In this document: one piece after another, positions 1,314-55,166 of the stretch | Layout: each line of letters starts with the position of its first letter | How positions within the stretch are numbered: position 1 is the first letter of the stretch | NCBI RefSeq assembly: GCF_035084215.1 | Contig: NC_090340.1 | Location: 14,694,001-14,758,000, forward strand | Source: Heptranchias perlo | Lineage: Eukaryota | Direction of reading: 5' to 3' | DNA length: 64,000 nucleotides | Notes under the pieces: model-generated | What the model saw: only the letters and a program-made list of their open reading frames with translations | Databases searched by the model: none | Told to the model about the DNA's origin: nothing | Program-made: the position numbers and the translations under genes

Positions 1314-2387
1314 TAAGACCATAAGGCCACAAGAGATTGGAGCAGGAGTAGGCCATTCGGTTCCTCAAGCCTGCTCCGCCATTTAATGATATCATGGCTG
1401 ATCTGATTTTTACCTCAACTCCACTTTCCCGCCCTTTCCCCATATCCTTCGACTGCCTTGCTAATCAAAAATTTGTCTAACTCAGCATTGAATACATTCA
1501 ATGACTCAGCCTCCACAACTTTTTGGGGTAAAGAATTTCAAAAATTCACGATCCTCTGGGAGAAGAAATTCCCCCTCATTTCCGTCTTAAACAGGCGACT
1601 CCTTATTCTGAGACTATTCCCCCTAGTTTTAGATTCCCCCAAGAGGGGTAACATCCTTTCAGTATCTACCTATCGAGTCCCCTCAGAATCTTATATGTTT
1701 CAATAAGATCTCCTCTCATTCTTCTAAACTCCAAAGAGTACAGACCCAGCCTGTTCAATCTTTCCTCATCAGACAACCCTTCCATACCCAGAATCAACCT
1801 AGTGTACCTTCTCTGAATTGCCTCCAATGCAAGTATGTCCTTCCTAAAATAAGGGCACCAGGACTGTATGCAGTACTGCAGGTATGGTCTCACCAGCACC
1901 CTGTATAGTTGTAGCATGACATCCCTGCTTTTATGCTCCATCCCCCTAGAAATAAAGACCAATATTCCGTTTGCCTTCCAGATAACCTGCTGTACCTGTA
2001 TGTTGACTTTTTGTTTTCATGTACGAGGACACCCAGATCCCTCTGTACCAAAGCATTTTGTGGTATTTCTGCATTCAAATAATATTTTGTTTTTTTAAAT
2101 TTTCCTCCCATAGTGGATGACTTCACATTTTCGCACATTATATTCCATCTGCCAAATTTTCGACCATTCGCTTCACCTGTCAATATCCCTTTGCAAACAG
2201 TTTGTGTCCTCACCACAACTTGCTTTTCAACCTATCCTTGTATCATCAGCAAATTTGGCTACAAGGCACTCTGTTACTTCATCCAATCCATTGATATATA
2301 TCGTAAATAGTTAAGGCCCCAGCACTGATCCCTGCGGCACTCCAATAGTTACAGATTGTCATTTGAAAATGAACCTTTTATCCCGAC
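1314..2387 (-). mobile_element. CR1 LINE 3' part (RT C-terminus and 3' tail), interrupted by the provirus
   Basis: LYRVLVRPYLQYCIQSWCP...RRMRGDLIETYKIL and the typical CR1 3' end. The element resumes at 11233. Confidence 0.9.
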
Positions 2388-3133
2388 TGTTGGCCGGAGG
2401 TCACCGGTTACGGTTACTGGCTTAGTACACAGAGGAGAAGAGTCAATTTTCTCTTAATTCTCAATTCGCTTTATTAACGTTGTTAGATCATGTACATACC
2501 ACTTATACATCTGGTTAGATACAGGCATGCAGTTTACAGCAGGTTATACAGTTTTAAACTCAAACTAGGATTTAAACGCACACCCACTAGGTTTCTCTGA
2601 CTAACATTCCCTGAGAGGTCACAGAATAGAAAGGATATTTTATTACCCGGAAAGGAGAGCTGACGCTGGCCAGGCATTCCGTTCTCTTTCTCTTGACGTA
2701 GTCTCTATGTACCTGGCGTAGTCTCTACATCCCTGACGTAGGTTCTCCCACTTTCGCGATGGTTAGTCTCCGGAGTCTCGCACACAAACTGGCACCAAGC
2801 CTGCAATTCTTCAGTCTTATTCCTAAGTCTGTCTTTTCGAATGATGCTGTCTTCTCCTGTTGGCTCAGATTTGCTGGAGTGGTCGGTGTCATCCCCTGAT
2901 TGGCTCTGTTCCAAGAGATTAGGTAGCATCACCTCATTACTCCTTTTCTAAACAAGGACTGGTGTCTCATCACAGCTCCTTTGTGCTTAGAATCGTAACT
3001 AATTCAAACCGGTTCCGGCCAGCTCAGACCAGTGACTGAACTTCAGGTCACTTCAGTTCAAAAGTTAGTCTCTTTGCCTGGGTGTCAGCAATTCGAAATA
3101 AACTCAGTAGTTTTCTGCAGCCCCTGGCCAACA
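2388..3133 (-). repeat. 3' LTR of provirus
   Basis: tgttggcc...ggccaaca. Direct repeat of 10481-11227, with about 20 differences in the first ~260 bp by eye. AATAAA on the minus strand near 2470. Confidence 0.95.
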
Positions 3134-3146
3134 TCTCCCCCCTTTT
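3134..3146 (-). promoter_or_regulatory. Polypurine tract of provirus
   Basis: Minus strand AAAAGGGGGGAGA directly abuts the LTR. Confidence 0.9.
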
Positions 3147-3393
3147 GATCCAAATATGCTTATCTTAGGATCATTACTCTCCCTTTCTGTGTACCACTCC
3201 TGAGGTTGTCATTGTCTCCCAATGGGCACGTTACATCTGCGATAGTATATGTTCATAGAAAAAATATAAAAGGTTATTGGAAAAATATAAATGGTTATAG
3301 AAAAAATATTTTAAAAACATATAAAATACACTTCACACAGTGTCCTTATATTGATAATCGCTTCATCTGTTTCATTATAGCACCAACACTCAA

Positions 3394-5623
3394 TTATTGC
3401 AAAATTTCATTTTTCCACGTTCTAAGCTGATATACATTGAATATTTTATTTATTCGTTCACGGGATGTGGGCGTCGCCGGCGAGGCCAGCATTTATTGCC
3501 CATCCCTAATTGCCCTTGAGAAGCTGGTGGTGAGCCGCCTTCTTGAACCGCTGCAGTCCGTGTGGTGACGGTTCTCCCCCAGTGCTGTTAGGAAGGGAGT
3601 TCCAGAATTTTGACCCAGCGACAATGAAGGAACAGCGATATATTTCCAAGTCGGGATGGTGTGTGACTTGGAGGGGAACGTGCAGGTGGTGTTGTTCCCA
3701 TGTGCCTGCTGCTCTTTTCCTTCTAGATGATAGAGGTCGCGGGTTTGGCAGGTGCTGTCGAAGAAGCCTTGGCGAGTTGCTGCAGTGCATCCTGTGGATG
3801 GTACACACTGTAGCCACAGTTCGCCGGTGGTGAAAGGAGTGAATGTTTAGGGTGGTGGATGGGGTGCCAATCAAGCGGGCTGCTTTATCTTGGATGGTGT
3901 CGAGCTTCTTGAGTGTTGTTGGAGCTACACTCATCCAAGCAAGTGGAGAGTGTTCCATCACACTCCTGACTTGTGCCTTGGAGATGGTTGAAAGGCTTTG
4001 GGGAGTCAGGAGGTGAGTCACTCGCCGCAGAATACCCAGCCTCTGACCTGCTGTCGTTGCCACAGTATTTATATGGCTGGTCCAGTTAAGTTTCTGGTCA
4101 ATGGTGACCCCCAGGATGTTGATGGTGCGGGATTCGGCGATGGTAATGCCGTTGAATGTCAAGGGGAGGTGGTTAGACTCTCTCTTGTTGGAGATAGTCA
4201 TTGCCTGGCACTTATCTGGCGCGAATGTTACTTGCCACTTATTAGCCCAAGCCTGGATGTTGTCCAGGTCTTGCTGCATGCGGGCTCGGACTGCTTCATT
4301 ATTTGAGGGGTTGCGAATGGAACTGAACAATGTGCAGTCATCAGCGAACATTTCCATTTCTGACCTTGTGATGGAGGGAAGGTCATTGATGAAGCAGCTG
4401 AAGATGGTTGGGCCTCGGACACTGCCCTGACGAACTCAATGTCCTCAATGTCCCAGCAGTGTCCTGGGGCTGAGATGATTGGCCTCCAACAACCACTACC
4501 ATCTTCCTTTGTGCTAGGTATGACTCCAGCCATTGGAGAGTTTTCCCCCTGATTCCCATTGACTTCAATTTTACTTGGGCTCCTTGGTGCCACACACAGT
4601 CAAATGCTGCCTTGATGTCAAGGGCAGTCACTCTCACCTCACCTCTGGAATTCAGCTCTTTCGTCCATGTTTGGACCATGTTTGGACCATTGAATATGAC
4701 AAGTGTTAACGCACATAAAATCGCAACTGCAGCAGCATGTGATAAAATCCTGACCCATGGATGTTTTTGAACATTAGATTCCCAATGCCAAAACTTATCC
4801 CAGAACCCGGGGTCCCGTAGCAGTTCATCTGCTTTATCAGCATGAGTTTTAATTATTTTAGTTTGTTTCGTCCATTGATGAATTATCTCTTTGGCTTCCT
4901 CCGCTATTTGCGTCCAATCTGCAGTCAGGTGTGGAATGGGTGGTAGTTCGGGAGGAACATATTTCCGCAGATCTTGGTCTATATCTTTACGTTGGACTGT
5001 GAGGTTTTCGTTTATTACCATCCTCTTTATTGGCTGAGGCAGAACTTGTCCACCGACAACCAGGTCTGCGGTCACATTGTTAATGGCCACATTGTGTCCT
5101 TCCAGAGGGCACTGTTTCCATCCTTTATTATAGTTCATAGCCGCTGTGGCTATGTAATACGTTTGTCCCACAAGGGAGTATTGTCACTACCCCAGTCAAT
5201 ATTTACATCGGTGTGGTCCCAGTGGACCACAATTTTACCTCGACCGTCGCTCCCCGATTGTCGCTCCTTAAATGGACCCACAAATTGATTGATGAATTTT
5301 CCCTCTGGGATTACCGACTATGTCACCTCTAGAACTATGTTACATGAAAACTGTACTGCCACTCCCTCCGGTATACCCAAAGTCTTTCCCACGCACGCTA
5401 ACCCATCCACTCCCGTATAATACAAATTTAAATCCTCTCTTTTCCCTTTGTTGTTTCGGACTGTCTTATTCTGCAGAGTAAAGTTGTCCCTGGTCTCGGG
5501 ATATCCCTCCTTCATCGACACTGCTTCAGGCACGTTCATTCGGCGTGACGGCTCTGAGGCAGTTTCAACCGCAGTTCTGATGATGGTCAATCCGATAGCA
5601 ACAAAATGCATTATCCCCTTCAT
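3394..5623 (-). pseudogene. env: env remnant of provirus (signal peptide, internally deleted ectodomain, heptad, TM, short tail), split by a LINE
   Basis: Signal-like MKGIMHFVAIGLTIIRTAV at 5623. Then ...IAEEAKEIIHQWTKQTKIIKTHADKADELL...WVRILSHAAAVAILCALTLVIFN. Removing the LINE at its TSD continues the frame as VYQLRTWKNEILQ*. Confidence 0.7.
3445..4687 (-). mobile_element. 5'-truncated non-LTR retrotransposon (CR1/L2 group, second family) inserted in env
   Basis: RT motifs ALDIKAAFD, FADDCTL and WQVTFAPDKC. A-rich 3' tail. 10-bp TSD CATTGAATAT at 3435-3444 and 4688-4697. Confidence 0.9.
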
Positions 5624-5759
5624 TCTAGGCTGGACCTGTAATAAACAAGTGTAATTTCTGCTCTTATTTACTGTTTCTTTTAAGTACTATCATAAGTCCA
5701 GTCTCTCCATATACTGAGCCAGACCGTCCATATCCTGTTCCCAATTTGTTTCAGATTCT

Positions 5760-8379
5760 TACCGTCCATTTCTTCTAATCCACTTATTCCCTCTTTTTGT
5801 TTTATGTTCCTTTCGTTTTTTTCCTGGATTCGCTTCTGCATGGGAACGGACAGTATCAAATTTGTTTTCAATCACCTCCTCATCGGCCTGTAGCTGGTCC
5901 TGTTCTTGATCTCCCTGACCTTCAGAATTAGGTTTTTTAATTCTCCGTCTTTCTTTTGCTCCTCCGTTAAATCCATTTCTTTGACCTGCTTCTCTTTCTG
6001 GCCCCCGATTTCCCCAACCGGTGGCTGCCATTCCTGTCCACGTACAGCACCTCGTTTGGCTAGTTCATCAGCTTTACTGTTCCCTTTGGGGGAGAGTTTT
6101 GAATGAGCTTTCACTTTTGTGACCCCATATCCTTACCCCTGTGCTTCTTCAAAGATGTACCGTAATAGCGGGGCTGATGGAAGGGGCCTTCCATCCACTG
6201 AGACAAATCCCCTCACTTCCCATCGGGGCAAATGTTCTGTGAGGCTATTACAAACATACATGCTATCAGAATATATGACTGATCTGGGCGGAAAATTTCC
6301 GGGTGACCAACCACATATGCGACGGCTGCTAGTTCTGCTATCTGCGCACTCATCGTGTTAGGTAATTTCAGAGCCGCACTAAAGCTTTCCTGTCCGTGGT
6401 CATACTCCATGTGTTTCCCACAGCCAGTTCTCCTTTCCCCATCCTGTACTGATGAAGAGCCATCCTCAAAAATGTAAAAATAGGGTTCTTCCTTTCCTGT
6501 TTCCTTTGTCTTTCTGCTTTCAGGCCCCGTCTTACCCCCACCCTTTTGTTTTGATACAAATGGGCCCTTGGGCTCATTTGCTATCATTAATTGACACTCA
6601 TGTTTTTCTCCCTGATAAACTAAGTTGTCTGCTGACATAGTAGTGGTTTTTACCCCCTTTACAGTTATATTTCTCCCTTGCAGCAACAATGTCCATCTAG
6701 CGATTCTATTTTGGCTAACTGAACCATCCTTAATCCTTCCATCTAACAGTAGCTGTACTGGGGTGTGTTCTGTTAATACTGTAAGTGGGTTTAGTCCCAC
6801 TATATAGGTAAAATGCTGCACTGCCCAAAAGACAGCTAGCAAGTGCCTTTCGCATACTGTATACCCCTGCTCTACTGGTGAGAGCATACGTGAGGCGTAC
6901 GCTACTGGTCGTAATTTTCCGTGTGTCTCCTGTAATAGAACTGCCGAGAGGGTGGTGTCTGTGGTAGCCACCTCCAATGAAAATGGCTCCGTTGGATTTG
7001 GGGGTTTTAGAGCAGGCGCAGCAGCTTGTACTTGCTTTAGATCAGTCATGGCCTGGGTGTGTTTTGTTTTCCACTCCCAGGCCACATTCTTTTTTAATAA
7101 TTCCATCAGCGGGCCGCCTTTGTGGCAAATCCATCAATATGGTCCCTGCAATATCCCACCAACCCCAAGAAGGGCCTTAACCCTTTAACATCCCGCGGCA
7201 CAGGGATTCTGCCAACCGTCTCTACCCTTCGCTTTTCAATGTCCCTTTGTTCCGGCGTCCGAATCATTCCCATGTAAGTAACTTTTTGTTTCATGGTCTT
7301 CGCTTCTTTAGGGTTAATCTTTAATCCCAAGTCATGTAACTACTGCAGTAATTGACTTAGCAGTTGATAATGTTTCTTCTTGGTTTCAGTTTGTAGGAGG
7401 CCTCGAGAATCCTTTTAACCCTTCCCTCAGCCATTGGTGAAATATGGACGGGGAATTGTGAAACCCCTGCGGCAGGGCCGTCCATGTACATTGCTGTCCT
7501 TGGAAAGTAAATGAGAATTTATATTGACATTCCTTCTCCAGTGGAATAGTCCAAAAACCGTTACTTATGTCCAAAACCGTAAACCACTGTGCATCCTCAT
7601 TTTGTCGAACTACTGTCTCTGGGCTAGTTGCTACAGTAGGAGCTGTTAGCAGGTGACTTTATTTAATTCTCTGTAGTCTATCGTTAGTCGCCAGCTACCG
7701 TCGGGTTTCCTCACTGGCAAAATAGGTGAGTTATTAGTAGAAGCTATTGGTCTTAATATCCCTTGCTGCAGCAGACTCTGTATCACCTTCTCTATCTCTT
7801 CTTCTGCTTGCTTTGGGAAACCATACTGCTTCTGTGGTTTGGGGTCTGGACCTTGTACACACACTCCCGGTCATTTTCCCACAATCATGTTTATGTCGGG
7901 CAATTACTATTGAGTTTTGTACAATAATTTGTTGTACTTCACGATAGTTACTCATTTCTCCTGGTTCTATCCACATTTCCCCGATCGCGCATATCCTATC
8001 CTGATATTCCCCCATCGGGACGAATGTGTGATTCATACTGCCCATGCCCAAAGGCATTTGCCAAATCATACAATTAACAGGGTCGAAGCAAAATCCCGCT
8101 TTGGCCAAAAAGCCACTCCCTAATATATGTTCTTGTTCTCTAGGTAATTTAATAAGGACCACTGAATGGTCTATTACTATGTCTCCCACTCACTTGTGAA
8201 TGCCCTGTGAATCCGCTTCGAATAATTTTGTTTTGAATTTTCCAATCTTTGTCATTGATCTGAGTGGTGTTAACGGTGGTTCGGGATCCCCCTGTGTCCC
8301 AAAGGAATGTAAGAGGGCGGCCTCCGACCCTACCATTCACTAGGGGTCTCCCCGTGTCATCCAACTGCAGGTCACACAC
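5760..8379 (-). pseudogene. pol: pro-pol remnant: aspartic protease, RT, tether (degenerate RNase H), RNase H; integrase core missing
   Basis: Protease FLWDTGGSRT. RT motifs SPILPVRKPDGSWRLTIDYRELN and DISNGFW...LPQGFHNSPSIF. Tether RPVAYASRMLSPVEQGY..CERHLLAV. RNase H DGSS...SAQIAELAAV...KAHS..GNSKADELAK. Multiple frameshifts and stops. Confidence 0.9.
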
Positions 8380-8403
8380 CCATAACGGAGAGGGCTGAGA
8401 CCG

Positions 8404-10169
8404 TCACTGCAGTTCGGGGTACAACCCGGAACTTGGTGATATTGCTATCGTATCACACTGAGGACTTGGTCTATTCAGCCCTTCCACGGGTAGGCTCTGA
8501 TTTCTTCCCCGACCTGCATTCTCTCGTCTCGGGTTTGGGCAGTCTCTTGCGAAGTGTCCCTCTTGGCCACAGTTATAGCATTTGGACACCTCGCCTTGAG
8601 TTCTCCCCGTTCCCGAGGAGTTTCCTCTTCCTCTGCCTCTACCTCTTCCCACTGTCTGATAAGCTGGAGGGGGTCCCCCTGAGTAGGTCCCCTCCCTTCA
8701 TTTCTCCAGGTTATCGTCTGATCTTTAACAGGCATTGCTCTGTCCCCGGATGCCTTGGATCGTTTTGGTATTTCCCTTTCCCATACTCTAACCATCTTCC
8801 TACTTATCCAGGGTTCCGTATGTGTGTCATCAGCGGATTCAAACTGATCTAGTGCCCTCCTCGACTCCTCAGTGCCATGCGACACTAGTGTTCTCAGCCA
8901 TCGGTTCCTAACCTCCTGCTGTAAATTGTTCCTGTCTAAGTATGTGCCATAGACCACCTGAAACACCGCCCAAATGCGGGCTGAAAATACAGTGGGGTGT
9001 TCACCTTTTCTTTGATAGCATTTCATTAGCGCCTCCACTGGATCCCCTCTGTTATCGCCCATGACAGATAATACCTGGTCCTTTAAGGCCTCATTCGTGC
9101 TTCTACCAAGTTTTTGTTCCTCCGGGATGGCGGAGTGTATATGTGGGTGTAGGCACATTAGGATTAATTTTCTTTCCTCAGCATCGTCTAAGCCGTGTAT
9201 CGCTCTCTGTTGCCTGACTGCTAGGAATAACTCCCTAGGATCATCCCCAGGCGCACACATTCCAATATCTTTTGCAATAACCCTCAGTTCTTGTACCCCA
9301 AGTGGGGTGGAATATGTCATATCCTGGCCATCTTCCCCCATCTGTGCTCTAGTGGTTACAAGGGGGGCCATTGGGGCAGACGGTTTTTTTGGCTCTGGAA
9401 TATGCTGGCGGTGGGTCCCCTCGTGGAGGTTCCCCATCAGTGCTGCTGTATCTATCCGCCTCGTCTGCTAAATCGTCCCAATCTACATCCCCTTGACCAC
9501 TTTCTTCACCTCTTCCGGGTGTGAAAGCGCACAATATGCTCCTCTGTGCGGCTAGCTGATCTTGCAGCCTCCCTATCAGTTTCTGAAACTTTGTGTGATC
9601 GCCGGTACTACTCCTCTTCTCCTGAGCTGATCTGTGAATCACATTCATGCAGTTTTTAAATCACTACATTGTTGTTTCCATCTCTCCACCTCAGCTTTAG
9701 CTGCTTGGGCTTCTCCCTCTCTCTTACTCTTTTCATTCGTCAATTTTTCGCACTGTAACTGATATTGGTTCATGTGCATCAAATCTGCACTTCTCTGTCC
9801 ATGTAGATCAGTTACCTTCTTACTAAGGCGGTCTATCTCCTAACGGAATTTTTTATTCTCTTCCCCTAATCCGTCTCGGATTTTCTGTTGTTCCTCCCTC
9901 TCTCTCCTAGCCTGTTGTCGGCATTCTATCCATTCGTCAAGTAAACATCCGATTGCTACGGACTTCTGTATCTTTTAAAATTTCCTATCTGACATCTTTG
10001 TTTGCGCAATTCTCCAAAGGACCTCCCCAACAGGCGTTCCCTTGTCTCCAATGTGACCCGCATACTCCCCGTATTGCAGCCACTTCCCTATTACGTATTT
10101 TTGGAGGAGTCCCTTCCAGTCAAAACAGTCCAAGACCCCAGGGCTTGGAGATTTCCCTTTATTCGTCAT
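8404..10169 (-). pseudogene. gag: gag remnant with coiled-coil region, capsid-like region and CCHC zinc knuckle
   Basis: CYNCGQEGHFARDC knuckle, capsid-like segment QRKGEHPTVFSARI, and position between the 5' LTR and the protease. Frameshifted. Confidence 0.85.
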
Positions 10170-10221
10170 CTTATGTTATTAGCTATGAATTAACCCAAAC
10201 TCCTGTCCTCTGTGTACTTTG

Positions 10222-10480
10222 CCAATTCGGTTCGGCTCGAGTCTCCCGCTGACTCAACTGAGAGATTTATCCTCAGAGCCCCCTTGCCAAATTCGGTTCA
10301 ACTCGAGTCTCCCGCTGACTCCACGGAGAGATTTATCCTCAGAGCCGACCCAAATTCGGTTCGACTCGAGTCTCCCGCTGACTCAATGGAGAGATTTATG
10401 CTCATAGCCCACCCAAATTCGGTTTGACTCGAGTCTCCCGCTGACGCAACCGAGGGATTTATATCGAGTCTACCCAAATC
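10222..10480 (-). repeat. Four-copy 61-65-bp tandem array in the proviral leader, abutting the 5' LTR
   Basis: Units start near 10222, 10287, 10350 and 10413. Conserved core ttcggtt..ctcgagtctcccgctgac...gatttat plus a variable segment of about 11-16 nt. Confidence 0.9.
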
Positions 10481-11227
10481 TGTTGACCGGAGGTCACTGG
10501 TTACGGTTACTGGCTTAGTACACAGAGGAGAAGATTCAATTCTCTCTTTATTCTCAATTCACTTTATTAACGTTATTAGATCATGTACATACAGCTTATA
10601 TGTCTGGTTAGATCTAGGCATGCAGTTTACAGCAGGTTATACAGTTTTATACTCATACTAGGATTTAAACGCACACCCACTACGTTTCTCTGACGAACAG
10701 TCCCTGAGTGGTCACAGAGTAGAAAGGATATTATATTACCCGGAAAGGAGAGCTGACGCTGGCCAGGCGTTCCGTTCTCTCTCTCTCGACGTGGTCTCTA
10801 CGTCCCTGACATAGTCTCTACGTCCCAGACGTCGGGTCTCCCACTTTCGCGATGGTTAGTCAACGGAGTTTCGCGCACAAACTGGCACCAAGCCTGCAAT
10901 TCTTCAATCTTATTTCCAAGTCTCTCTTTTCAAATGATGCTGTCTTCTCCTGTTGGCTCAGATTTGCTGGAGTGGTCGGTGTCATCCCCTGATTGGCTCT
11001 GTTCCAAGGGGTTAGGTAGTATTAACTCATTACTCCTTTTCTAAATAAGGACTGGTGTCTCATCACAGCTCTTTTGTCCCTTAGAAGCGCAAATAATTCA
11101 AACCGGTTCTGGCCAGCTCAGACCAGTGACTGAACTCCCTGTCATTTCAGTTCAAAAGTTAGTCTCTTTGCCTGGGTGTCAGCAATTCGAAATAAACTCA
11201 GTAGTTTTCTGCAGCACCTGGCCAACA
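10481..11227 (-). repeat. 5' LTR of provirus
   Basis: tgttgacc...ggccaaca, a direct repeat of 2388-3133. Confidence 0.95.
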
Positions 11228-11232
11228 CCGAC

Positions 11233-11790
11233 TCTTTATTTTCTGTTAGTTAGCCAATCCTCTATCCTTGCCAGTAAATTACACCCAACACCATGAGCTC
11301 TTATCTTTTGCAGTAATCATTATGTGGCACCTTATCGAATGCCTTTTGGAAATCCAAATATACTGCATCCATTGGTTCCCCTTCCTCAAAGAACTCTAAT
11401 AAATTTGTCAGACATGATTTCCCCTTCATAAAACCATGTGGACTCTCTTGATTGTTTACGAGTCTCCAAATGTCCTGCTACTACTTCCTTAATAATGGAT
11501 TCTAGCATTTTCCCAATGACAGATGTTAGGCGAACTGGTCTATAGTTACTTGCTTTCTGTCTCACTCCCTTCTTGAATAGGGCTGTTACGTTTGCGGTTT
11601 TCCAATCCGCTGGGACGTTTCCAGAATCAATGAATTTTGGAAGATTACAACCAATGCATCCACTATCTCTGTAGCCACTTCCTTTAAGACCCTCGGATGC
11701 AAGCCATCAGGTCCAGGAGAATTGTTAGCCTTTAGACCCATTAGTTTACCTGGTTTTTTTTCTCTAGTGATAATGACAGTGATAGTGACA
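11233..11790 (-). mobile_element. CR1 LINE 5' part (continuation of 1314-2387)
   Basis: SPGPDGLHPRVLKEVATEIVDAL. The sequence joins 2387 seamlessly, as shown by the uninterrupted copy near 29510. Confidence 0.88.
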
Positions 11791-12619
11791 ATCATTAAGA
11801 TAGTTCACGGAAAACTCCTGGAAAATATCAACAAAAACATAAAATTCATATTTTAATGTGAAATATAATTGAGAACCGATAGTAAAACCTGAAGTTATAT
11901 CATCCGCTGCACAAATATTCTCAGCCAAACCTTATTTGCCTTCAAATTCCTGTATTTGATGTAAAAGCAAGAGGTTTATCTTTGTTATCTGATTATATTC
12001 CATATTGTGCTTAATATTAATCACTTTATTTTTTGTTCCCATCATCAAATGGTTTTATTCGTTATTATTATCTAGCTTTCCTACAACACAACGATTACCA
12101 AGAGCTACGTTCAAATTATCGGCTCTCGCCTTTCTCCCAATGCAGTTACCGATCCTGACCACCATTTTCGGCGATTCCCCGTGAAGAGTTCTGAAATTAA
12201 GTCTCTGGCCAACTTGTGTCCCTCACCCCTCCATGGCACAGCGGTTTGGAGTTGAAACTGTCTCTTGCATTTCAACTAAGCGGTGCCCACAACCTGGCTG
12301 CAGTTCAGCCGGTTACACCGTTTTTGTAACAAACTGATTGTCGAGTCAGACAATAGTGAATAAATCACCGCACGTCGATCTCCTATACTATTCAGTGACA
12401 TTCAGTAATACAAAGGCGAACTTAATTATGACTTAACCATGAAGGCAGTGTTATCTGATTTCAAGGAGCGCCGATTGTTCCAGGCAGTAATATTCTCTGC
12501 ACTTCAAAACCAGAAATCCTCACGGAATCGGATTAAAATAGTTTTGATTGCCCGTATTTGCAACAAAAGTTTCCACTTTGCAACATGATAAATGGAATGT
12601 CCGGCGACACAAAATCACT

Positions 12620-14381
12620 TTCCAAACCATTTGGTTGTGGGTGCACAACTAGTTTGAGTGAAGTGCTCTGAGTCTCCGGCCACTAATGGCTATAGATCAT
12701 TGCTGATCGCTACAGTCAAACACTCTCGGTACGATCTAAAATTGAAAATCATGTTCGGCACCATACCGACTGTAGAAATCTCTTTGAAACCACTGATATG
12801 GAAACTCAGTGAATATTTTAATTATTCATTATGATAAAATTTCATTAATTCAAAGCTGAAAAAGAAGGCGTAACGGGACCGAACCGTTGTGAAAAGCCGG
12901 TACGTTCATTCATTCATTCCCGCAAAGGGTTCAATTATGCAGAAAGATTGATATCATGGAGATATTTAATCATAATCATGTCAGAACAATTTGCCTATTT
13001 CCTAAAAGTATTTGTTCCGCTTACCCGCTTAATGGGTCATACAAATCGTGTTCAGAAAAAAATATTTGACGCCAGCGGGGAAGGATTTCACCCTCGGGGA
13101 GGAAATAGTTTTTCGGAAAAGAAAAGCGAGCGCGGTGTAAAACGGGCGGCCGATTCGCTATCGCTCGTTTCGCGGTATCGCCGAAGGCCAATTTCACTCC
13201 CGCCCGGCGGCGCGTGGCTGTTGCAAATTATTAAATAGGAGGAAAGAAAACTGTCCGTTTAGTTAAAAATGCATCTAAGTAATAACTGTTTATAGATTCA
13301 ATATTATTTGTAATGGGGGAAAATAACTTAATGAATCAGTGTGCTGGAAGTAACGCTCATTTAAGCATTTCTTTATTATAAAATGAAGATTGACAGCTTT
13401 AAATATTAGGTACAGTGATCACAGTAGTCACCGGTCTTAACATTCGCACGTATGTAGCTATATTAACTATGGTTTCTGCACTTTATTTCTAGCGTATGTT
13501 GCTCTGTTCAATGTTTAACCAGTAGTCTGTAAACTGGTGAAGGCAATGAACTAGCCACATAACAAAACATATACTTGGTTCACATCCAGGAAACAAAGGC
13601 TGAGACAGTTGATACGCTGCAATAGGTTTGAGCAAAGCTCAGTAAACTCCAAGACGTAAATTTGCAGAGGAAAGGACTGTGTACCATCAGCCGGAGCTTG
13701 TAAGCGGAACAGGCGGTCACAGATCACCAGTGTAGCATCAACGTTGTGGTCATAACGGAAAATATAAGGTTGGTTGACCCTTGTGTATTGTAACTAACGC
13801 TGTTTGCGTGTTATTCTGATGATTGTTTTCGGCAGCAATCCACAAACGGGCAAAACGACCAATTAACAATATTTCCAAAGATGGGTTCACAGACCAAACA
13901 AGGGACCGACACGACTCTGGAAGTGTCAAGCTCCAAACAAACGGAGAAACCCAAAATAAATACAGAATAACATATTCCAATATTATATCATTGATCGTGG
14001 GTGTAATTATTTGTTATTGCTTAATCGTTTGAGGAATTTTCATTTATTTTCTTGTAATAAAAATGAACTTTCCTTGCATATTTTTAATCAATATGCACTA
14101 TTTAACAGATGCGAAATCTTTGCAACGATACGCTAATTGTTTTGCTGTACCTCGATATTATCATGCATAATTTCAATAAAAATATATGATCTACGATTTC
14201 TCTCTGTTCACCATTAATGATGATTCTTCTTCGCGAGTAAAACCGTGAAACCTGGGTTTTGACCGATGTGTTTCCTTACTGTATTCTGCCTTCCAGTCCA
14301 GGCGATTCTCCTGATGTGGAAGGCAGGACGCTCCAGTCTATTGACTCGTCCATAAACCCACTGAACCCAGTTTGCAGTTGA
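12620..14381 (+). pseudogene. IgSF receptor copy A: 3' (cytoplasmic-candidate) exon remnants; TM exon deleted
   Basis: 12620-12812 is homologous to 24545-24740 (QTLSV...TDMETQ*). 14302-14381 is homologous to 26205-26284 (GDSPDVEGRTLQSIDSSINPLNPVCS*). The ~700 bp that holds the TM exon in copy B (about 23680-24365) is absent near 12385-12440. Confidence 0.6.
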
Positions 14382-22670: not shown

Positions 22671-22982
22671 CTGCTCCAACTCCACTGAAGATTGTCTCCA
22701 GGACACCCGAGAGCAAACCATCTGCTTCTCTGACTCTTGTGTGTGAAACGGCTGAGTTTTACCCGGAGGATTTCACCCTCACTTGGTATAAAAATGGCGT
22801 CAAAACCACAACTGGGATAAATATGACTAAACGGCGGAACACTGAGGGTCTGTATGAAGTTTCCAGCACTTTGGAAGTGACGAAGCCGAAGCGGAATGGG
22901 TCTGTTTACACCTGTTTGGTAACTCATGTCGCCCTCCAGACTCCCGCCATTGCAACCTACACTGTCAGCAATTCCGACTCAG
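22671..22982 (+). CDS. Copy B exon 3: C1-set Ig domain
   Basis: Acceptor ctgtccacag, donor gtaagg, phase 1-1. Reads LTLVCETAEFYPEDFTLTWYKNG...GLYEVSSTL...YTCLVTHVAL. Confidence 0.93.
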
Positions 22983-24164: not shown

Positions 24165-24278
24165 TTCGTGATGGCATGTCTCCTTACTACTCGGGTTTTA
24201 GATATGCGATGTGCGGTGTGGCGTTACTAGTGCTTCTGGTCATCATCCGGTCGCACTGCCAATTGCAGGTTAATAAAG
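24165..24278 (+). CDS. Copy B exon 4: stalk and transmembrane segment with Arg
   Basis: Acceptor ttcttgcag, donor gtaagt, 114 bp, phase 1-1. Reads VRDGMSPYYSGFRYAMCGVALLVLLVIIRSHCQLQVNK. Confidence 0.85.
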
Positions 24279-32250: not shown

Positions 32251-33132
32251 TTGGAAACTTAATTGCGGAGGTTACTTTCATCCTAACAGTCTGCGTCCGA
32301 AATAGGTGTGACCAGTCCATTCTGAGAAAGTGTCACAGAACCAAATTGCCCAATTTGGAACTCTCACTGAGAGAAACCATAGTTTCGTTAGCATGCGGGT
32401 GAAAATATGATATTGGTATAATTGCCAGCGTTCTACTCAGGTTGGGGCTGAGCCATACCCTTAGCACCATTCATGCCTTGCTTCTGGATGGAGCTGACAC
32501 CAGAAAATGTCCCCTGTATAATCTGCAACGAATTTGCACACCTATTCGTTGTAAACGGGTTCGGAATGTTGTTATACATAGCACATAGTGTAGAACGACA
32601 TAAATCTATCAGGTAATAGTTCCATTCCCCAGCTCGATTAATGCGGAATTCACCCCAAGTGATTTGAAAAAGGAGGAAAATGGAATTTGAAATTCAGTTA
32701 TACTAAAATCAGAAATATTCAAAATCAGATTACACTTCGGTTGTGCACTTCAGCTGTTCAGTAAAAGTAGACACAGAAAAAAATGTTGATACAAATGACT
32801 CGCTTAGTGCCGTGCAGATATTGACAGTGGTGTCATATGTTAAAGAGCTCAACGCAAGCTCGAGGAACAGCATTTCATCTTTCCATTAGGCACTTAACAG
32901 CCTTCAGGCTTTAACATTCAGTTCAACAACTTTAGATCATAACCACCGCTCCCATTTGATCGGACGACATGTCCTGGTTACGGTTCTGTTGTTAGCATTT
33001 ACACTTCCTCTCGACAAATCGTTGTTTCTTCAGCTTTGTTTCTTTACTTGTCGCATTACAACCAGCTTTTTCCTTTCACCATCACTCTTTTTGTCATTTA
33101 ATCACTCCTGCCCTACACTCCATCACAGACCT

Positions 33133-33776
33133 TGTTAGCGTGGATTTTGGACTGTTGAATTAAAGGCAACGATGAAGTGACTATTGGGTACATGGCGGTG
33201 GTCTTTACCCTAAAACCACACTGAAATGTGCTTTGTGTAGATTAGACTAACCTTAATTAAAGGCTTAAATATAACGCTTGACTACTAATAAAATGGACAC
33301 TATTAAACAAAATGGATTCTATTAAACAAAGGGACACTATTAAATAAAATGGATTCTGTGACTGTGGGAAAGACAGTTAAAAGTGTTGAGTTTGTACATT
33401 CCAGAACTGGCTTACAGTCTGGGAATACAAAGGACATTTCACAACGAACTGATAAAACTATAGAACCAGACTGCATGAAACAAAGGCATGCTGTCTTAAG
33501 GTGATAATAGTTGTTCGGACTTAATTGGTTAATGCGTAAGCAGTCCGTTGTTGCTATGCGGACTTAATTGGTTAATGTGTGTAATCAAGATTTATGATGT
33601 AAAAGCTACTGAAAATCTGTATTTCAAAGGTATAAAAAAGCATGACAACCATTTTAAAGTTGAGAAGGTAGCTGCGTTCACTACGGAGTGTCCAGTCCTT
33701 CTCCCAAAGCTTTGTCCAATAAACTGCATGTTGAATCTTTAAGTCTGACTCCGAGTGGTGATTTTTTCCCACAACA
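33133..33776 (+). repeat. Complete LTR (TG...CA) with TATA box and poly(A) signal
   Basis: tgttag...caaca, TATAAA at 33631, AATAAA at 33718, followed by a PBS. Confidence 0.88.
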
Positions 33777-33778
33777 AT

Positions 33779-33796
33779 TGGCGTAGTCGGCAGGAT
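33779..33796 (+). promoter_or_regulatory. Primer binding site, tRNA-Ser
   Basis: TGGCGTAGTCGGCAGGAT lies 2 nt after the LTR and is complementary to the vertebrate tRNA-Ser 3' end (ATCCTGCCGACTACGCCA). Confidence 0.9.
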
Positions 33797-35304
33797 CTCA
33801 CTACTGGTGAGCTGATCGGTTGGCCTCGATCAGCGAACTGGAGTCGAGATCATTGAACTGTGGGAGTCAGACTAAGCCAACAGTGCAGTTAACACAGGGG
33901 GGTAAGTTAAGAGAATTTATGGGACTGTTGGGTATAACTAAGAGCTGGTTGCTTGTGCTGATCGACTAAGGACAAGGAAGTGTCTCTCTTGTATCCTGCC
34001 TTAGACTGGCTGTTCAGAGGGGAGATCCCCCACGCGAAGGTCAGGATCTTGAAGTGGATGCAAAAACAGGGGCACTTGCGATTGTGAAGCACGAGTAACC
34101 AGAACCATCCGGTACCAAACTCTGTAGTGGCGAACAAACGCAGAGATTAGAGCATAAGTTAAAGCATAAGTTAATTTACGATGTGTATTGTCTGATCATA
34201 CAACCTAGAACCGAACCCCATGGGAGGAAACACATTATCAAACTGATAATTGTGGCCGTGAGTATATAGTTGCAACTGAAAGTAAAATCTGGAGTGGAGT
34301 TCGGGCTGGGATTTCAGAAAGTTTAGAAAGTTTGGGAGGGAAAAGTAAATCTGGTGTGACCGGCAGTGACCGGTGATTACGGCTGGCTGTACACCAGCAC
34401 ATACCGACAGTGATCGGTGATTAAGTACCGGCAAGTCCCGGGGCCAGGACCCGAAAGTTGAAAGAAAAGAAAATCCGGCGAGAAGCCGGGACCCGAAGGA
34501 AAGATATAGCGAGAGGCTGAGATATCAGAAAAGAAAATCCGGTGGTTAGACCGGGACACGAAAGGTTTGAGTGAAAAGAAAACCCGGTGGATAGACCTTG
34601 ACCCGAAGGATATAGCGAGAACAGAGCACGATAATAAAGTTAACAAGTGAACAACCTAGATGGGGACCTGCAGGTTCCCTTATCGAGAAGTATATGACAG
34701 ACAGACACTCATTGATTAAGCAGATGCAAAAGGATGGCTGGGATATTTCTCAGACCTTAGAACAACAGAGAAAGTGGATAGATGGGGAAAAGAAGGATAA
34801 AACAAAAAAGGCAGGAGTATTACTAGTCCACCAACAAGCTGGAACCTTAGGGAATTAGAAGGCACCTCCACTAGAAAGTGGAGCGAAGATAAGGATAAAA
34901 TTAGGGAATTAGAAACTAGGATAAGGGAATTAGAAAAAAGAATCAATTAAAATGTTTAAAAGACAGAGACCCGGAAAAGAAAGGGTGTACTGTCTCTTTA
35001 AAAAGCCTGTCCTGATTGTGAGTGTTTTTTCGGTGTTGTGGGCCACGCCCCTTCTTACTGCGTCTTACGTGTTTATGTATTTGTTTTGTCTTGTGTTTAA
35101 TTCTGAGATTGCTGAATTAAAATTGGAGTTATTGAGGTTAAGTGACCGATTAAATTCTGATTCTTATAAAATGTGAGCATGTCAAATGACTGGCTGTTCA
35201 GAGGGGAGATCCCCCACGCGAAGGTCAGGATCTTGAAGTGGATGCAAAAACAGGGGCACTTGTTATTGTGAAGCACGAGTAACCAGAACCATCCGGTACC
35301 AAAC

Positions 35305-35712
35305 TCATGCTTTTTTATACCTTTGAAATACAGATTTTCAGTAGCTTTTACATCATAAATCTTGATTACACACATTAACCAATTAAGTCCGCATAGCAAC
35401 AACGGAAATGTCCTTTGTATTCCCAGACTGTAAGCCAGTTCTGGAATGTACAAACTCAACACTTTTAACTGTCTTTCCCACAGTCACAGAATCCATTTTA
35501 TTTAATAGTGTCCCTTTGTTTAATAGAATCCATTTTGTTTAATAGTGTCCATTTTATTAGTAGTCAAGCGTTATATTTAAGCCTTTAATTAAGGTTAGTC
35601 TAATCTACACAAAGCACATTTCAGTGTGGTTTTAGGGTAAAGACCACCGCCATGTACCCAATAGTCACTTCATCGTTGCCTTTAATTCAACAGTCCAAAA
35701 TCCACGCTAACA
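35305..35712 (-). repeat. Inverted partial LTR (U3 through TATA box, lacking 33441-33545)
   Basis: Reverse complement of 33133-33440 joined to 33546-33645. Confidence 0.92.
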
Positions 35713-38309
35713 GACCTTCTTCTTTGTTCTTATCTCACTCCGCCCCCTTTTTTCCTGGCAATACATTAACGTGTAAACTGTTAAATCTCTAACTTCTTCC
35801 ATTTCTGATGAAAGTTCATCATCCTGAAACCAATGTGCACGCAACACGGTCTCACAAACAGAAAATTAATTGAATGATCAGCGTATTCACTGATAAATTC
35901 GGATGAATTGCTGACGAGGACACTTGGAGAACTGTGCGCTGTTCTTCAAAAATGCCGTGGGATCTTCTTCATCTACCTAAGCAGGCAGATGGATCCTTAG
36001 TTGGGTCATTAGATAATCTTGAAAGCAATGCACATAATCTTAAAGACAATAATCTCAAATCACGCTGAATTCCTTATATTATATCGGTGCGAACTTCCTA
36101 TTAACTTCTTCCATTAGAAATGCCTATGTCGGAATTTCTAATGGAAATTGGTTCTATGCGTTTGTCAAGCTGTAATTATGCCCTCCCGCAATAGGGGCAT
36201 TGCACTGGCACGAGGGCGTAATTGCAGCCCAACGGGTATAACATGGGACATTTCCATTATAAAAATGAATATCAGAATTGATAGGACAGAATGTATATAA
36301 CTTAAAATGGATATCAAGTTACGTCTGTATGCATTGGACCAAATAACACCCATCGTCTAACCTGATGACTGCACGCCTGTTTGATTTTCCTTGTGCAACA
36401 CGATGGGCGATTGAATCTATTTTATAAAATTTACCTTGACATTAAAAAATGGCTGATGCGGACTAACATGAATACAAGCAGAGACAGTGCTTTATAATGA
36501 GATGAGCTACAGGAAGGCAGTTAGCCTTCATGATCAGGATTACATCTTTATGTGGAATATTTCAGCACCTCCTGTTGCTGGTCATTATTTATCCTTTTTA
36601 TAAAAAGGACGAGGGCGGAGTTCAAGTGACATTAGAAGAAATAAAAAATGACAAATTTCCTCTTCTTGTACTTGGGCATGAAGGATTGTTTCTCCTATTG
36701 GCATGCAATTTCTCCTGCCCGATATTCCAAAGGTCCCAGGATAACCCACAATGCTCCTAGAACCTCCGTCCCCAGTGAATCCAGAACTTTGCGTCTTTCC
36801 TCCCACTCCTCCCGACCATTGGGCCCAACGTTCCCCTCCCCCACCCCAAAATATAAAAAACCTGAGACACCATCAAATTACTCCTGACCCTGATCCCCTT
36901 CCCAGTGCGCCGTGGTCCTATGATTGGCCCGAATACTGATAAGCCAATTGTCCCTAACAATAGGACTTGGCATAATAGCGTGTCCTTTCCAGCTCTGACT
37001 CATTGTGAGCAACGCCACGAGAGATCAACTCGTTATATATTAAAAAACTAACAGCTTTGCACTGTTCATGTCACCTTCATCCATTATAAATTGAAAGCTC
37101 CACATGATTAATATAAACAGCCAAAATAATCTTGTCACACTATCGGTACACCATGTCACTACTGAAGGCCCGACTGCATCATAACTAGCAGGACGGTGTA
37201 ATTAGAGCTTGAGAAGTTTACCGTGGCAGTTTACATTATAAGTGTGGCTATAAGAATTTGTATTGAAAACGCAGAAAAATTGCTACTGAATGTATGACTT
37301 TAAAAAGTGACTGGATTATATCTGCACGTCCTGGCCCAATTAAAATCTGCCCATTGAAATAATTTTAATTGAAGACAAGACATGGTCTTGACAGTCTGCA
37401 AAAACACGGACAATTAATTAGTAATATATTAACAATCTTACATATGCAAGTACTTCAATTATAACTTCCCCAGTTCACTTTTATAATGCGAAGTATTTAA
37501 ATAAACTTGTCACACTGTACTGCCATGCTGCCACTAGCACTGAACTGCCTCAGCATTATACTTCGCTGCTCCTCAGCCTGTACTTCAGGGAAGCTCCTAT
37601 GGTCTGACTGCTCTGCTTCCCAGATGGTCATAATTTTGCTATTTAACTATAAATAACTATATAAAACAAAAATAGATGAAAATAAGGACATAATTTATGA
37701 TTTCAATATGTGGATTGAATTAATTCTGCGTCCTCCGGGCCAATTATTTCTCAACCCTCAACCGCTCCTTCACGGAAACACCACCTTTGGTCCCGGCTCC
37801 CGGCGTGTAACGACACGACCGAGGTGCCGAGTATTGTTACTGATTCCACTCTCAGCGCGCCCGCACCACCACCGACCTACTAGCACTACAGCGTTTCTTC
37901 ACTCGTTCAGTTCATTTCCTCTGTTGCCATTTTTGATTCTTCTGCTGCGTTGACCCAATTTGGGTGTGTTTGATATGCGTTGTACTTTAAAGGATTGGGC
38001 TCTGCGAAGTTTAAATTCTTCATTTGGATTCGACTATAAAGTAGAGGACTTCAGGCATTGGGATCAGGCTGCAAATGATTCGAGGTATAATTGGCAGTTT
38101 GCAAAAGTGACCTCCCCACTTAGCCCAGCGGTCCACTCATTCGGCCCTCATTGTTCCCTTCTCAAAAAATTTCGTCAAACTCAACCTTCCCATAACAAAT
38201 CCATGCGGACTGTCCTTGGTTAATCTGTACCTTTCTAAATGACAATAAATATTGTCCACAGAATTCCTTCCAATAATTTACCCACCTCTGAGGTTAGGTT
38301 GTACTATGT

Positions 38310-54287: not shown

Positions 54288-55166
54288 CTGCAAGACATTT
54301 TCCGTTATTTCGCGAGCTATTTCTGGCCCAATAATCTGTCTCACCAGCGTCCAAATCCAGCTCCCGTTGCCTATTCGTGGGTGAACAATCCAAAGTTTGG
54401 TGAAATCTGCTTGTGAATTTTGGGAATAATCCATATCCAAAGATAAAAAGCGATTTCGCAATAAATGCTTGGCTGCCACTCAATTTTCACCATAGTAGCT
54501 TTTCGGGAATTTCCTGCTTAAATCCACCGCACATATTTTGTTTAACTTATTTTGTAGTCCAGTTCTGATTGAATTGTATGGAATCCATGGATCAACACGA
54601 GAATCACATTGCTCTTGCATAGCATCACATCGGGAAATCTATAATTCATAATTCCATCCAGTCTTGCAGATTACGGCACTGTGTAAGACACGCGTTCCAT
54701 AAAGCATGGTTTAATCCTTTGTGGTCAGTTTCTATATTTACTACTTTAAATAATACATTTCCAGTGTCTTGCCGTGGCTTGCTGCCTCTTTATATTCCCT
54801 TACGTTTAAGTGAAAGTATTATTGCTTTTAGTCTGACGATGTGCCCTTTGGAGAAAACGAGACAATGGAGTGGGTATCCTGCATAATCTTCATTGCACCA
54901 TACTGCATTTGGCGGGTAATTGTTAACCCCTACGCCCTTGTGGCACAATGACAATGCAGGTTTCTTTTCATATGAGACTTCTTCCTGCTTATGCAACCAA
55001 CGTTTCTGTAGTGCCCTAAAGTTACAAGTCTTGAAAGTTCAGTCTGTTACAATCTATTTCCTGAATTGGCAGCCACATGCCCAACGTCACTGCGTCACAA
55101 TTCGTATTACACAGTTCGCAACCACCTTTTCATTACCAAAATCATGCACATTGCGGCGAGCTCAGA

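What the first reader, a model, noticed from the sequence alone, without database searches (positions are those of the whole stretch)
33133..35712. LTR element integrated with two U3 ends: inverted LTR termini with a clean 5-bp TSD
Seen: full LTR, PBS-Ser, ~1.4 kb non-coding interior, a direct re-copy of leader 34004-34122 at 35188-35306, then an inverted U3 that is identical over 308 bp and lacks 105 bp further in. Two internal junctions have TC microhomology. GACCT flanks both ends as a direct repeat, so the rearrangement predates integration. Known: normal proviruses have direct LTRs. Inference: a copy-back or template-switch cDNA accepted by integrase, or the founder of a TIR-like non-autonomous family. 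The two TATA boxes face each other, so convergent transcription (dsRNA) or DNA fold-back is possible.
Basis: partly seen in the sequence, partly recalled or inferred. Interest (0 to 1): 0.75.

Follow-up and report, generated by a model that had tools for sequence, protein, structure and literature searches.

The report
Provirus fragment with two inverted U3 ends
A 2.6-kb remnant of an endogenous retrovirus in a vertebrate genome carries the same promoter end, inverted, at both tips and a piece of a second, unrelated high-copy sequence inside; it is likely a one-off copying accident in a particle that held two different genomes, not a new mobile family.

Summary
The structure is real. The inverted arms match over 408 of 408 bases, GACCT flanks both ends, and an empty site with one GACCT appears in both DNA runs laid (one sample). 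It holds a leader, a broken gag remnant, a polypurine tract, and then 202 bases of a high-copy sequence unrelated to the left LTR, likely the U3 of a second LTR type (B). The inverted arm starts at 33645, where family contigs show another U3 joining the shared R-U5. Best reading (0.45): a particle with two genomes (U3A and U3B) did an intermolecular plus-strand transfer, stalled in U3B, jumped to the leader, copied the unpaired U3A backwards, and integrase joined both U3A ends. Five bases is also the TSD length of a related neighbouring ERV. The TSD does not prove this, because the host target already matches the element's right end over 7 bases, so one-ended integration with host repair (0.33) gives the same junction. 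The element lacks a 3' R, so normal retrotransposition is unlikely. Verdict: a new variant of known aberrant integration, unusually readable, probably inert.

The parts
33128..33132 (+). Left copy of target duplication GACCT
   Evidence: empty-site joint skips 2585 = 2580 + 5
33133..33776 (+). Complete LTR type A, TG...CA; TATA at 33631, AATAAA at 33718; U3/R boundary near 33660 (inferred from TATA spacing)
33779..33796 (+). Primer-binding site, 2 nt after the LTR (tRNA-Ser match recalled)
33797..34630 (+). Leader, with a donor-like site at 33901 and an acceptor-like site ending at 34004
   Evidence: family contigs tile most of it in X5 and X6 (table 8)
34631..34941 (+). Broken gag remnant in two frames; homology to P0001 stops at its residue 109 of 183
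34973..34985 (+). Polypurine-tract-like run of 13 purines directly before TG
34986..35187 (+). First 202 bp of a high-copy sequence unrelated to LTR A, likely the U3 of a second LTR type (U3B), cut off at 35187
   Evidence: no homology to LTR A; depth jump and loose ends running on past 35187 in X4 (8 contigs) and X6 (3)
35188..35306 (+). Direct re-copy of leader 34004-34122, 2 differences
35305..35406 (-). Inverted copy of U3A 33544-33645, including the TATA box
35405..35712 (-). Inverted copy of U3A 33133-33440, ending in CA on +; 105 bp skipped between the two inverted pieces
35713..35717 (+). Right copy of GACCT; family contigs with native U3A flank match the window through 35716
   Evidence: loose ends at 35716 in X5 and X6 (table 7)

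Best explanation
This is likely a single aberrant reverse transcript from a particle that packaged two genomes of one ERV family with different U3 regions, and integrase likely inserted it using a U3A end on each side. Shown: the order LTR A, PBS, leader, broken gag, purine tract, 202 bp of unrelated high-copy sequence, leader re-copy, inverted U3A; identical arms; a 5-bp duplication; an empty site. Inferred steps: (1) plus-strand strong-stop DNA made on genome A transferred to the minus strand of genome B, giving U3A on the left and PPT-U3B on the right. (2) Because the two LTR types would share R-U5 from about 33645 on, U3A would hang as an unpaired single strand. (3) Plus-strand synthesis stalled 202 nt into U3B, re-primed on the leader for 119 nt, then primed at the base of an unpaired U3A strand and copied it to its end, skipping 105 nt. 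(4) With a second U3A plus strand as that template, both ends would be double-stranded U3 attachment sites, which integrase trimmed to CA and joined with its 5-bp stagger. The product has no 3' R or U5, so it is predicted to be unable to retrotranspose again.
For: Arms 408 of 408 identical, while family contigs differ from this U3A by 6 of 158, 8 of 188, 7 of 158 and 6 of 112 plus a gap (table 8), so both arms come from one source. Both ends stop exactly at TG/CA. Empty-site joint 33124>35710 skips 2585 in 2 of 4 runs laid (both DNA runs, one contig each), depth 61.2 and 22.4 against 57.2 and 25.9 for the exact-match flank contigs. The neighbouring ERV has a 5-bp TSD, GTCGG; its pol matches P0015, whose gag N-terminus matches this element. 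Purine run then TG at 34986 with a depth jump (X4: 61,336 and 127,376 against 2,077-12,935 in the interior bins). Loose ends at 33645 (X5, 2 contigs) and 33648 (X6, 1) show another TATA-bearing U3 joining the same R region where the inverted arm begins. Intermolecular second-strand transfer is argued for HIV-1 in PMC5651808 (passages).
Against: The target matches the element's native right end over 7 bases (ACAGACC; 13 sites in 128,000 strand positions of the window), which suits a host-made junction equally well. The model needs two U3A plus strands; my one search for that step listed no paper on it. That the U3 in the loose ends at 33645/33648 is U3B is not shown. PMC5651808 notes that the second transfer is generally intramolecular in cell culture. 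Summed contig depth is not a copy number. The empty-site contigs have only 21 and 34 letters on the short side and the flank is a repeat, so a paralogue is possible. All runs come from one sample.
Confidence: 0.45

Rival explanations
1. One-ended integration with host repair. Integrase joined only the left U3A end. The bad right end was extended on nearby viral DNA, by RT before integration or a host polymerase after it, ran off the unjoined 5' end of U3A, and annealed to the matching ACAGA(CC) in the target, mimicking a 5-bp TSD. Two half-integrated cDNAs joined by repair are a variant of this.
For: 7-bp match at the right junction. PMC5041404 (Discussion read whole; passages) describes one end inserted by integrase and the other by the host at up to 30% efficiency, copying either strand of viral DNA and several templates in series. 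It needs only one U3A strand, which explains the identical arms. Both leader copies have C at the 34015 position, where all contigs counted in the four runs show A (table 3), which points to one source for both copies.
Against: In that paper the aberrant end is often truncated and the duplications are usually hundreds to thousands of bp. Here the end is an exact CA and the duplication equals the neighbour ERV's 5 bp. A purely post-integration host route gives no reason for the arm to start at 33645. Two different U3 templates are still needed.
Confidence: 0.33
2. Post-integration template switching in a provirus that already had mismatched LTRs. A replication fork switched templates three times and returned at the right junction through the AACA shared by the two LTR termini, keeping the original TSD.
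For: 0-2 bp overlaps at serial junctions are typical of microhomology-mediated replication repair (recalled). Both LTR termini end in AACA.
Against: Integrated DNA gives no reason to stop exactly at the left junction or to start at 33645. No unrearranged filled allele is among the rows shown (tables are cut).
Confidence: 0.09
3. Founder or member of a mobile, TIR-like non-autonomous family moved by a DDE enzyme.
For: 308-bp perfect terminal inverted repeats with TG...CA ends and a 5-bp TSD.
Against: No second copy in the 64-kb window. Every part traces to an ERV. No 3' R for retrotransposition, and retroviral integrases do not excise DNA (recalled).
Confidence: 0.06
4. Assembly artefact, such as a fold-back chimera or collapsed repeats.
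For: Perfect inverted arms. No listed contig bridges the junctions, and the laid sample shows the empty site.
Against: The host flanks continue in direct orientation and rejoin exactly as the empty site. A 105-bp skip, a 2-base difference in the re-copy and exact TG/CA ends are not what simple fold-back chimeras give (inference).
Confidence: 0.07

Closest known systems
Aberrant HIV-1 and ASLV proviruses from one-ended integration (PMC5041404; passages and Discussion read)
   Same: One normal integrase end; the other end is joined to further viral sequence in either orientation through serial template copying.
   Different: Here both ends are exact U3 termini, the duplication is of normal length, the insertion is endogenous, and two U3 types are involved.
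Intermolecular second-strand transfer in heterozygous virions (PMC5651808; passages read)
   Same: Would give a first-generation provirus whose left U3 comes from one genome and whose PPT-U3 comes from the other.
   Different: Those products keep direct LTRs. Here the right LTR is cut at 202 bp and replaced by a leader re-copy and inverted U3A.
Non-class I/II vertebrate ERVs with 5-bp TSDs (ERV3/ERV4 of PMC4299795, passages read); relative P0015, a horn-shark gag-pol
   Same: 5-bp TSD, LTR-PBS-leader-gag-PPT order; P0015's best solved relatives are MLV-type then foamy-virus RTs.
   Different: P0015 has a clear zinc knuckle and P0007 a weak one, which ERV3 and ERV4 lack. The family is unplaced and the termini are inverted.
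Mu killer of maize (PMC3440606; start of abstract seen in listing only)
   Same: A rearranged, inverted derivative of its own family that could yield antisense or hairpin RNA by host read-through.
   Different: Mu killer derives from a DNA transposon and silencing is shown. Here no transcript of the locus is shown and the arms are 1.7-2.0 kb apart.

Membership tests
Endogenous retrovirus (non-autonomous, deleted) | TG...CA LTR followed by a tRNA PBS | tested here: met
   33133-33776, then AT, then an 18-nt PBS-like sequence; tRNA-Ser identity recalled
Endogenous retrovirus (non-autonomous, deleted) | gag related to elements with retroviral RT | tested here: met
   74% to P0001; P0015 (gag N-terminus 47% to window, E 4.5e-10) has RT closest to MLV-type structures; the link is indirect
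Endogenous retrovirus (non-autonomous, deleted) | PPT before the 3' LTR | tested here: met
   13-purine run 34973-34985, then TG
Normal provirus | Two direct, matching LTRs with U3 left and U5 right | tested here: not met
   Right end is inverted U3A; the sequence after the PPT is unrelated to U3A
Concerted integrase insertion | Both ends at CA and a TSD of the family's length | tested here: inconclusive
   Ends exact, and 5 bp equals the neighbour ERV's TSD, but a 7-bp target match makes the right junction ambiguous and this family's own TSD length was not measured
ERV3/ERV4 | 5-bp TSD | tested here: met
   GACCT; table in PMC4299795
ERV3/ERV4 | No zinc knuckle in gag | tested here: inconclusive
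   That part of gag is missing here; relatives P0015 (E 2e-7) and P0007 (below cut-off) have one, which argues against membership
ERV3/ERV4 | RT phylogeny | not testable with these tools
   The element has no pol and no parent copy was retrieved
TIR DNA transposon or MITE family | Several loci with the same internal junctions and different TSDs | not testable with these tools
   No genome held; no second copy in the window; read tables are cut
Killer-type silencing allele | Hairpin or antisense RNA from the locus and silencing of the family | not testable with these tools
   Only contigs were available, from a sample that shows the empty site

The most novel reading that the evidence does not exclude
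Co-packaging of ERV genomes that share R-U5 but differ in U3 is a recurrent route by which integrase makes elements with long perfect terminal inverted repeats. In this case the inverted promoter or host read-through would produce antisense or hairpin RNA that silences the parent family, a retroviral counterpart of Mu killer that is still polymorphic and so testable between carriers and non-carriers.
Probability: 0.12. Interest if true: 0.75.

Novelty: new variant of a known kind. Interest (0 to 1): 0.47.

Why it matters
If the best reading holds, this is an unusually complete germline record of two disputed or rarely seen steps: intermolecular plus-strand transfer between co-packaged genomes, and integration of a DNA with no U5 end. 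It also gives a caution: a clean TSD is not proof of concerted integration when the target already resembles the LTR end. LTR annotation tools that expect direct repeats would miss such elements or call them DNA transposons. As one dead insertion it probably has little effect, unless it makes antisense RNA against an expressed family.

Tried and rejected
Back-splicing as the origin of the leader re-copy was considered because it starts at an acceptor-like AG; rejected because contigs running past 35187 do not continue with a donor there. The joints 33580>35406 and 33405>35525 on opposite strands fit extra tandem repeats in family U3A, not the inversion. No listed contig bridges 35187, 35305 or 35405, but 5,964 pieces, 14 joints and 425 loose ends were not shown, so this is no evidence either way. 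No RNA holder listed; X5 and X6 are only guessed to be RNA. X5 record 23 and X6 record 31 cross the gag-to-PPT deletion but with 29 letters on the short side, under the tool's 31-letter bar, so a family-wide deletion is only suggested. Searches for a parent element gave nothing usable: viral contigs 0; metagenomes 3 weak loci of 366 candidate stretches with no DNA match to the element; prokaryote genomes 0, and 1 chance 21-mer. Pfam found nothing for the two interior ORFs. Rfam found nothing over 32700-36100 at E up to 1, so a recalled hammerhead-like motif in the right flank is unsupported. Paper searches for inverted-LTR or two-U3 proviruses listed no such case; none of the 20 rows shown held 'two U3 ends', 'U3-U3' or 'inverted LTRs' (216 and 36 papers matched overall). 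The library lacks most subscription journals. A supplement search of PMC5041404 showed only a header row; its table of aberrant proviruses may bear on how often such ends occur.

Full report
Observation. The repeat finder and a BLAST of the element against the window confirm every coordinate. The inverted arms are 33133-33440/35405-35712 (308 nt) and 33544-33645/35305-35406 (102 nt). Taken together, with the 105-bp skip, they have 0 mismatches in 408. The leader 34004-34122 is repeated directly at 35188-35306 with two adjacent differences. GACCT flanks both ends in direct orientation. The element has no other match in the 64-kb window.

Context. The window is repeat-dense vertebrate DNA: several RT and endonuclease frames and an Ig C1 exon. 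A cartilaginous fish is likely, by inference from the only named gag relative, a horn-shark protein. No genome is held. Eight runs from one sample hold the region; I laid 4 of the 8, all as contigs.

Empty site. Both DNA runs have one contig with a joint from 33124 to 35710 that skips 2,585 bases, which is the 2,580-bp element plus one GACCT. Depths are 61.2 and 22.4, close to the 57.2 and 25.9 of the exact-match flank contigs. The two RNA-guess runs do not show it. The short sides are 21 and 34 letters and the flank is a repeat, so a paralogous copy is possible. Either way the target has a single GACCT. If it is the orthologous allele, the insertion is not fixed. Zero differences in 408 bases puts arm divergence below about 0.7% (rule of three).

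After LTR A (33133-33776), AT and the PBS (33779-33796) comes a leader, then a gag remnant. It matches P0001 at 74% (34631-34849) and 73% (34864-34941) in two frames and stops at residue 109 of 183. A distant relative, P0015, carries a zinc knuckle and an RT whose closest solved structures are MLV-type, then foamy-virus. At 34973-34985 is a run of 13 purines followed directly by TG. The next 202 bases have no homology to LTR A: 32 of 200 shuffles scored as well. Summed contig depth jumps there, in X4 to 61,336 and 127,376 from 2,077-12,935 and in X1 to 13,239 and 28,052 from 7-2,025. The tool warns that this is no copy number. Contigs run on past 35187 with other letters (8 in X4, 3 in X6), so the segment is cut off here. 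I read it as the start of the U3 of a second LTR type, B; its R-U5 was not seen. Native U3A has its own, different upstream flank with a G run, seen as loose ends at 35716 in X5 and X6 (one contig each).

A normal cDNA has the same U3 at both LTRs (established mechanism). U3A on the left with PPT-U3B on the right therefore needs two templates. PMC5651808 (passages) argues that second-strand transfer can be intermolecular in heterozygous HIV-1 particles, while noting that it is generally intramolecular in culture.

Where the arm starts. Loose ends at 33645 (X5, 2 contigs) and 33648 (X6, 1 contig) show a different U3 with its own TATA-like box joining the same R region (table 7). The inverted arm begins at 33645. 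If that U3 is U3B, a plus-strand strong-stop DNA of type A paired to a type B minus strand would leave exactly 33133-33645 unpaired, the stretch that was copied backwards. A chance hit within a few bases of a 644-bp LTR would be about 1 in 100 (rough estimate). That this U3 is U3B is not shown. Family contigs differ from this U3A by 6 of 158, 8 of 188, 7 of 158 and 6 of 112 letters, so the two identical arms share one source.

The TSD is less decisive than it looks. In favour of integrase: both ends stop at TG/CA, and the neighbouring ERV (LTRs 2387-3133 and 10480-11227) has a 5-bp TSD, GTCGG. Its pol matches P0015, whose gag N-terminus matches this element. PMC4299795 (passages) gives 5 bp for ERV3 and ERV4. 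Against: the target reads ACAGACC at 33125-33131, and family contigs with native U3A flank match the window through 35716, so the first four TSD bases equal the element's native extension. ACAGACC occurs 13 times and ACAGA 214 times in 128,000 strand positions. PMC5041404 (Discussion read whole) describes proviruses with one integrase end and one host-made end, at up to 30% efficiency, where the free end copies either strand of viral DNA and several templates in series before joining. That route would give the same right junction here. Both models need the same target sequence, so the junction is close to neutral between them. I keep integrase at both ends slightly ahead (0.45 against 0.33) because in that paper host-made ends are often truncated with long duplications. 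The re-copy gives mixed signs on its template. Both copies share C at the 34015 position, where all contigs counted show A, which suggests one source. T at the 34079 position is a family variant in X5 and X6, which could point to a second template or to CpG decay (table 3; 126 rows not shown).

What it can do. It has no 3' R or U5, so first-strand transfer and renewed retrotransposition are predicted to fail. The TATA boxes do face each other (33631 on +, 35313 on -), but the right promoter ends 8 bases past its TATA box and lacks 105 bp. Both arms lie upstream of the predicted start near 33660, so an LTR-initiated RNA would carry only the inverted arm: antisense to family U3A in trans, but not a hairpin. 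A hairpin needs host read-through. An Ig-family gene on the same strand has a C1 exon at 22671-22982 and a predicted membrane exon at 24165-24278 ending in a donor site; whether its transcript reaches 33133 is unknown. No expression of this locus is shown. The resemblance to Mu killer rests on the start of an abstract (PMC3440606).

Novelty. Four searches of the held library listed no endogenous retrovirus with two inverted U3 ends; the library lacks most subscription journals. Four unchecked earlier notes of this scan report inverted-end LTR insertions in fungal genomes; these are leads, not support. The parts of the mechanism are known. Their combination in one readable germline insertion, with two U3 types, I did not find described. 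Verdict: real, a new variant of aberrant retroviral integration, probably a dead one-off; interest 0.47.

Noticed in passing
window 2387-11227 (-): An older ERV of another family: LTRs 2387-3133 and 10480-11227 about 92% identical, 5-bp TSD GTCGG, broken gag and pol, a 63-bp tandem array at 10224-10462 over the PBS region, and a LINE-type RT region at about 3444-5183 inside it.
   Followed up: partly
window 22671-22982 and 24165-24278 (+): Ig C1-set exon with splice sites and a predicted transmembrane exon: an Ig-superfamily membrane protein gene about 9 kb upstream of the insertion, on the same strand.
   Followed up: partly
window 33901 and 34004: Donor-like and acceptor-like sites about 100 bp apart in the leader; the re-copy begins on the last base of the acceptor-like AG. 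May be chance.
   Followed up: partly
window 32848-33132 and 35718-35823: The target is itself a high-depth repeat in all four runs. A hammerhead-like motif near 35805-35828 suggested a Penelope-type end (recalled), but Rfam gave no match.
   Followed up: partly
window 33282-33355 and 33516-33580: Tandem repeats in U3A (19/37-bp and 43-bp spacing); family contigs show extra copies, and the 105-bp skip in the right arm removes one 22-bp copy.
   Followed up: partly
window 34941-34950: gag homology ends and other family contigs join from a different upstream sequence, suggesting an internally deleted non-autonomous subfamily that is abundant in the RNA-guess runs.
   Followed up: partly
window 54333-54488 (-): 156-bp fragment matching eukaryotic large-subunit rRNA (Rfam RF02543, 62.5 bits), possibly a pseudogene or an rRNA-derived repeat.
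   Followed up: no
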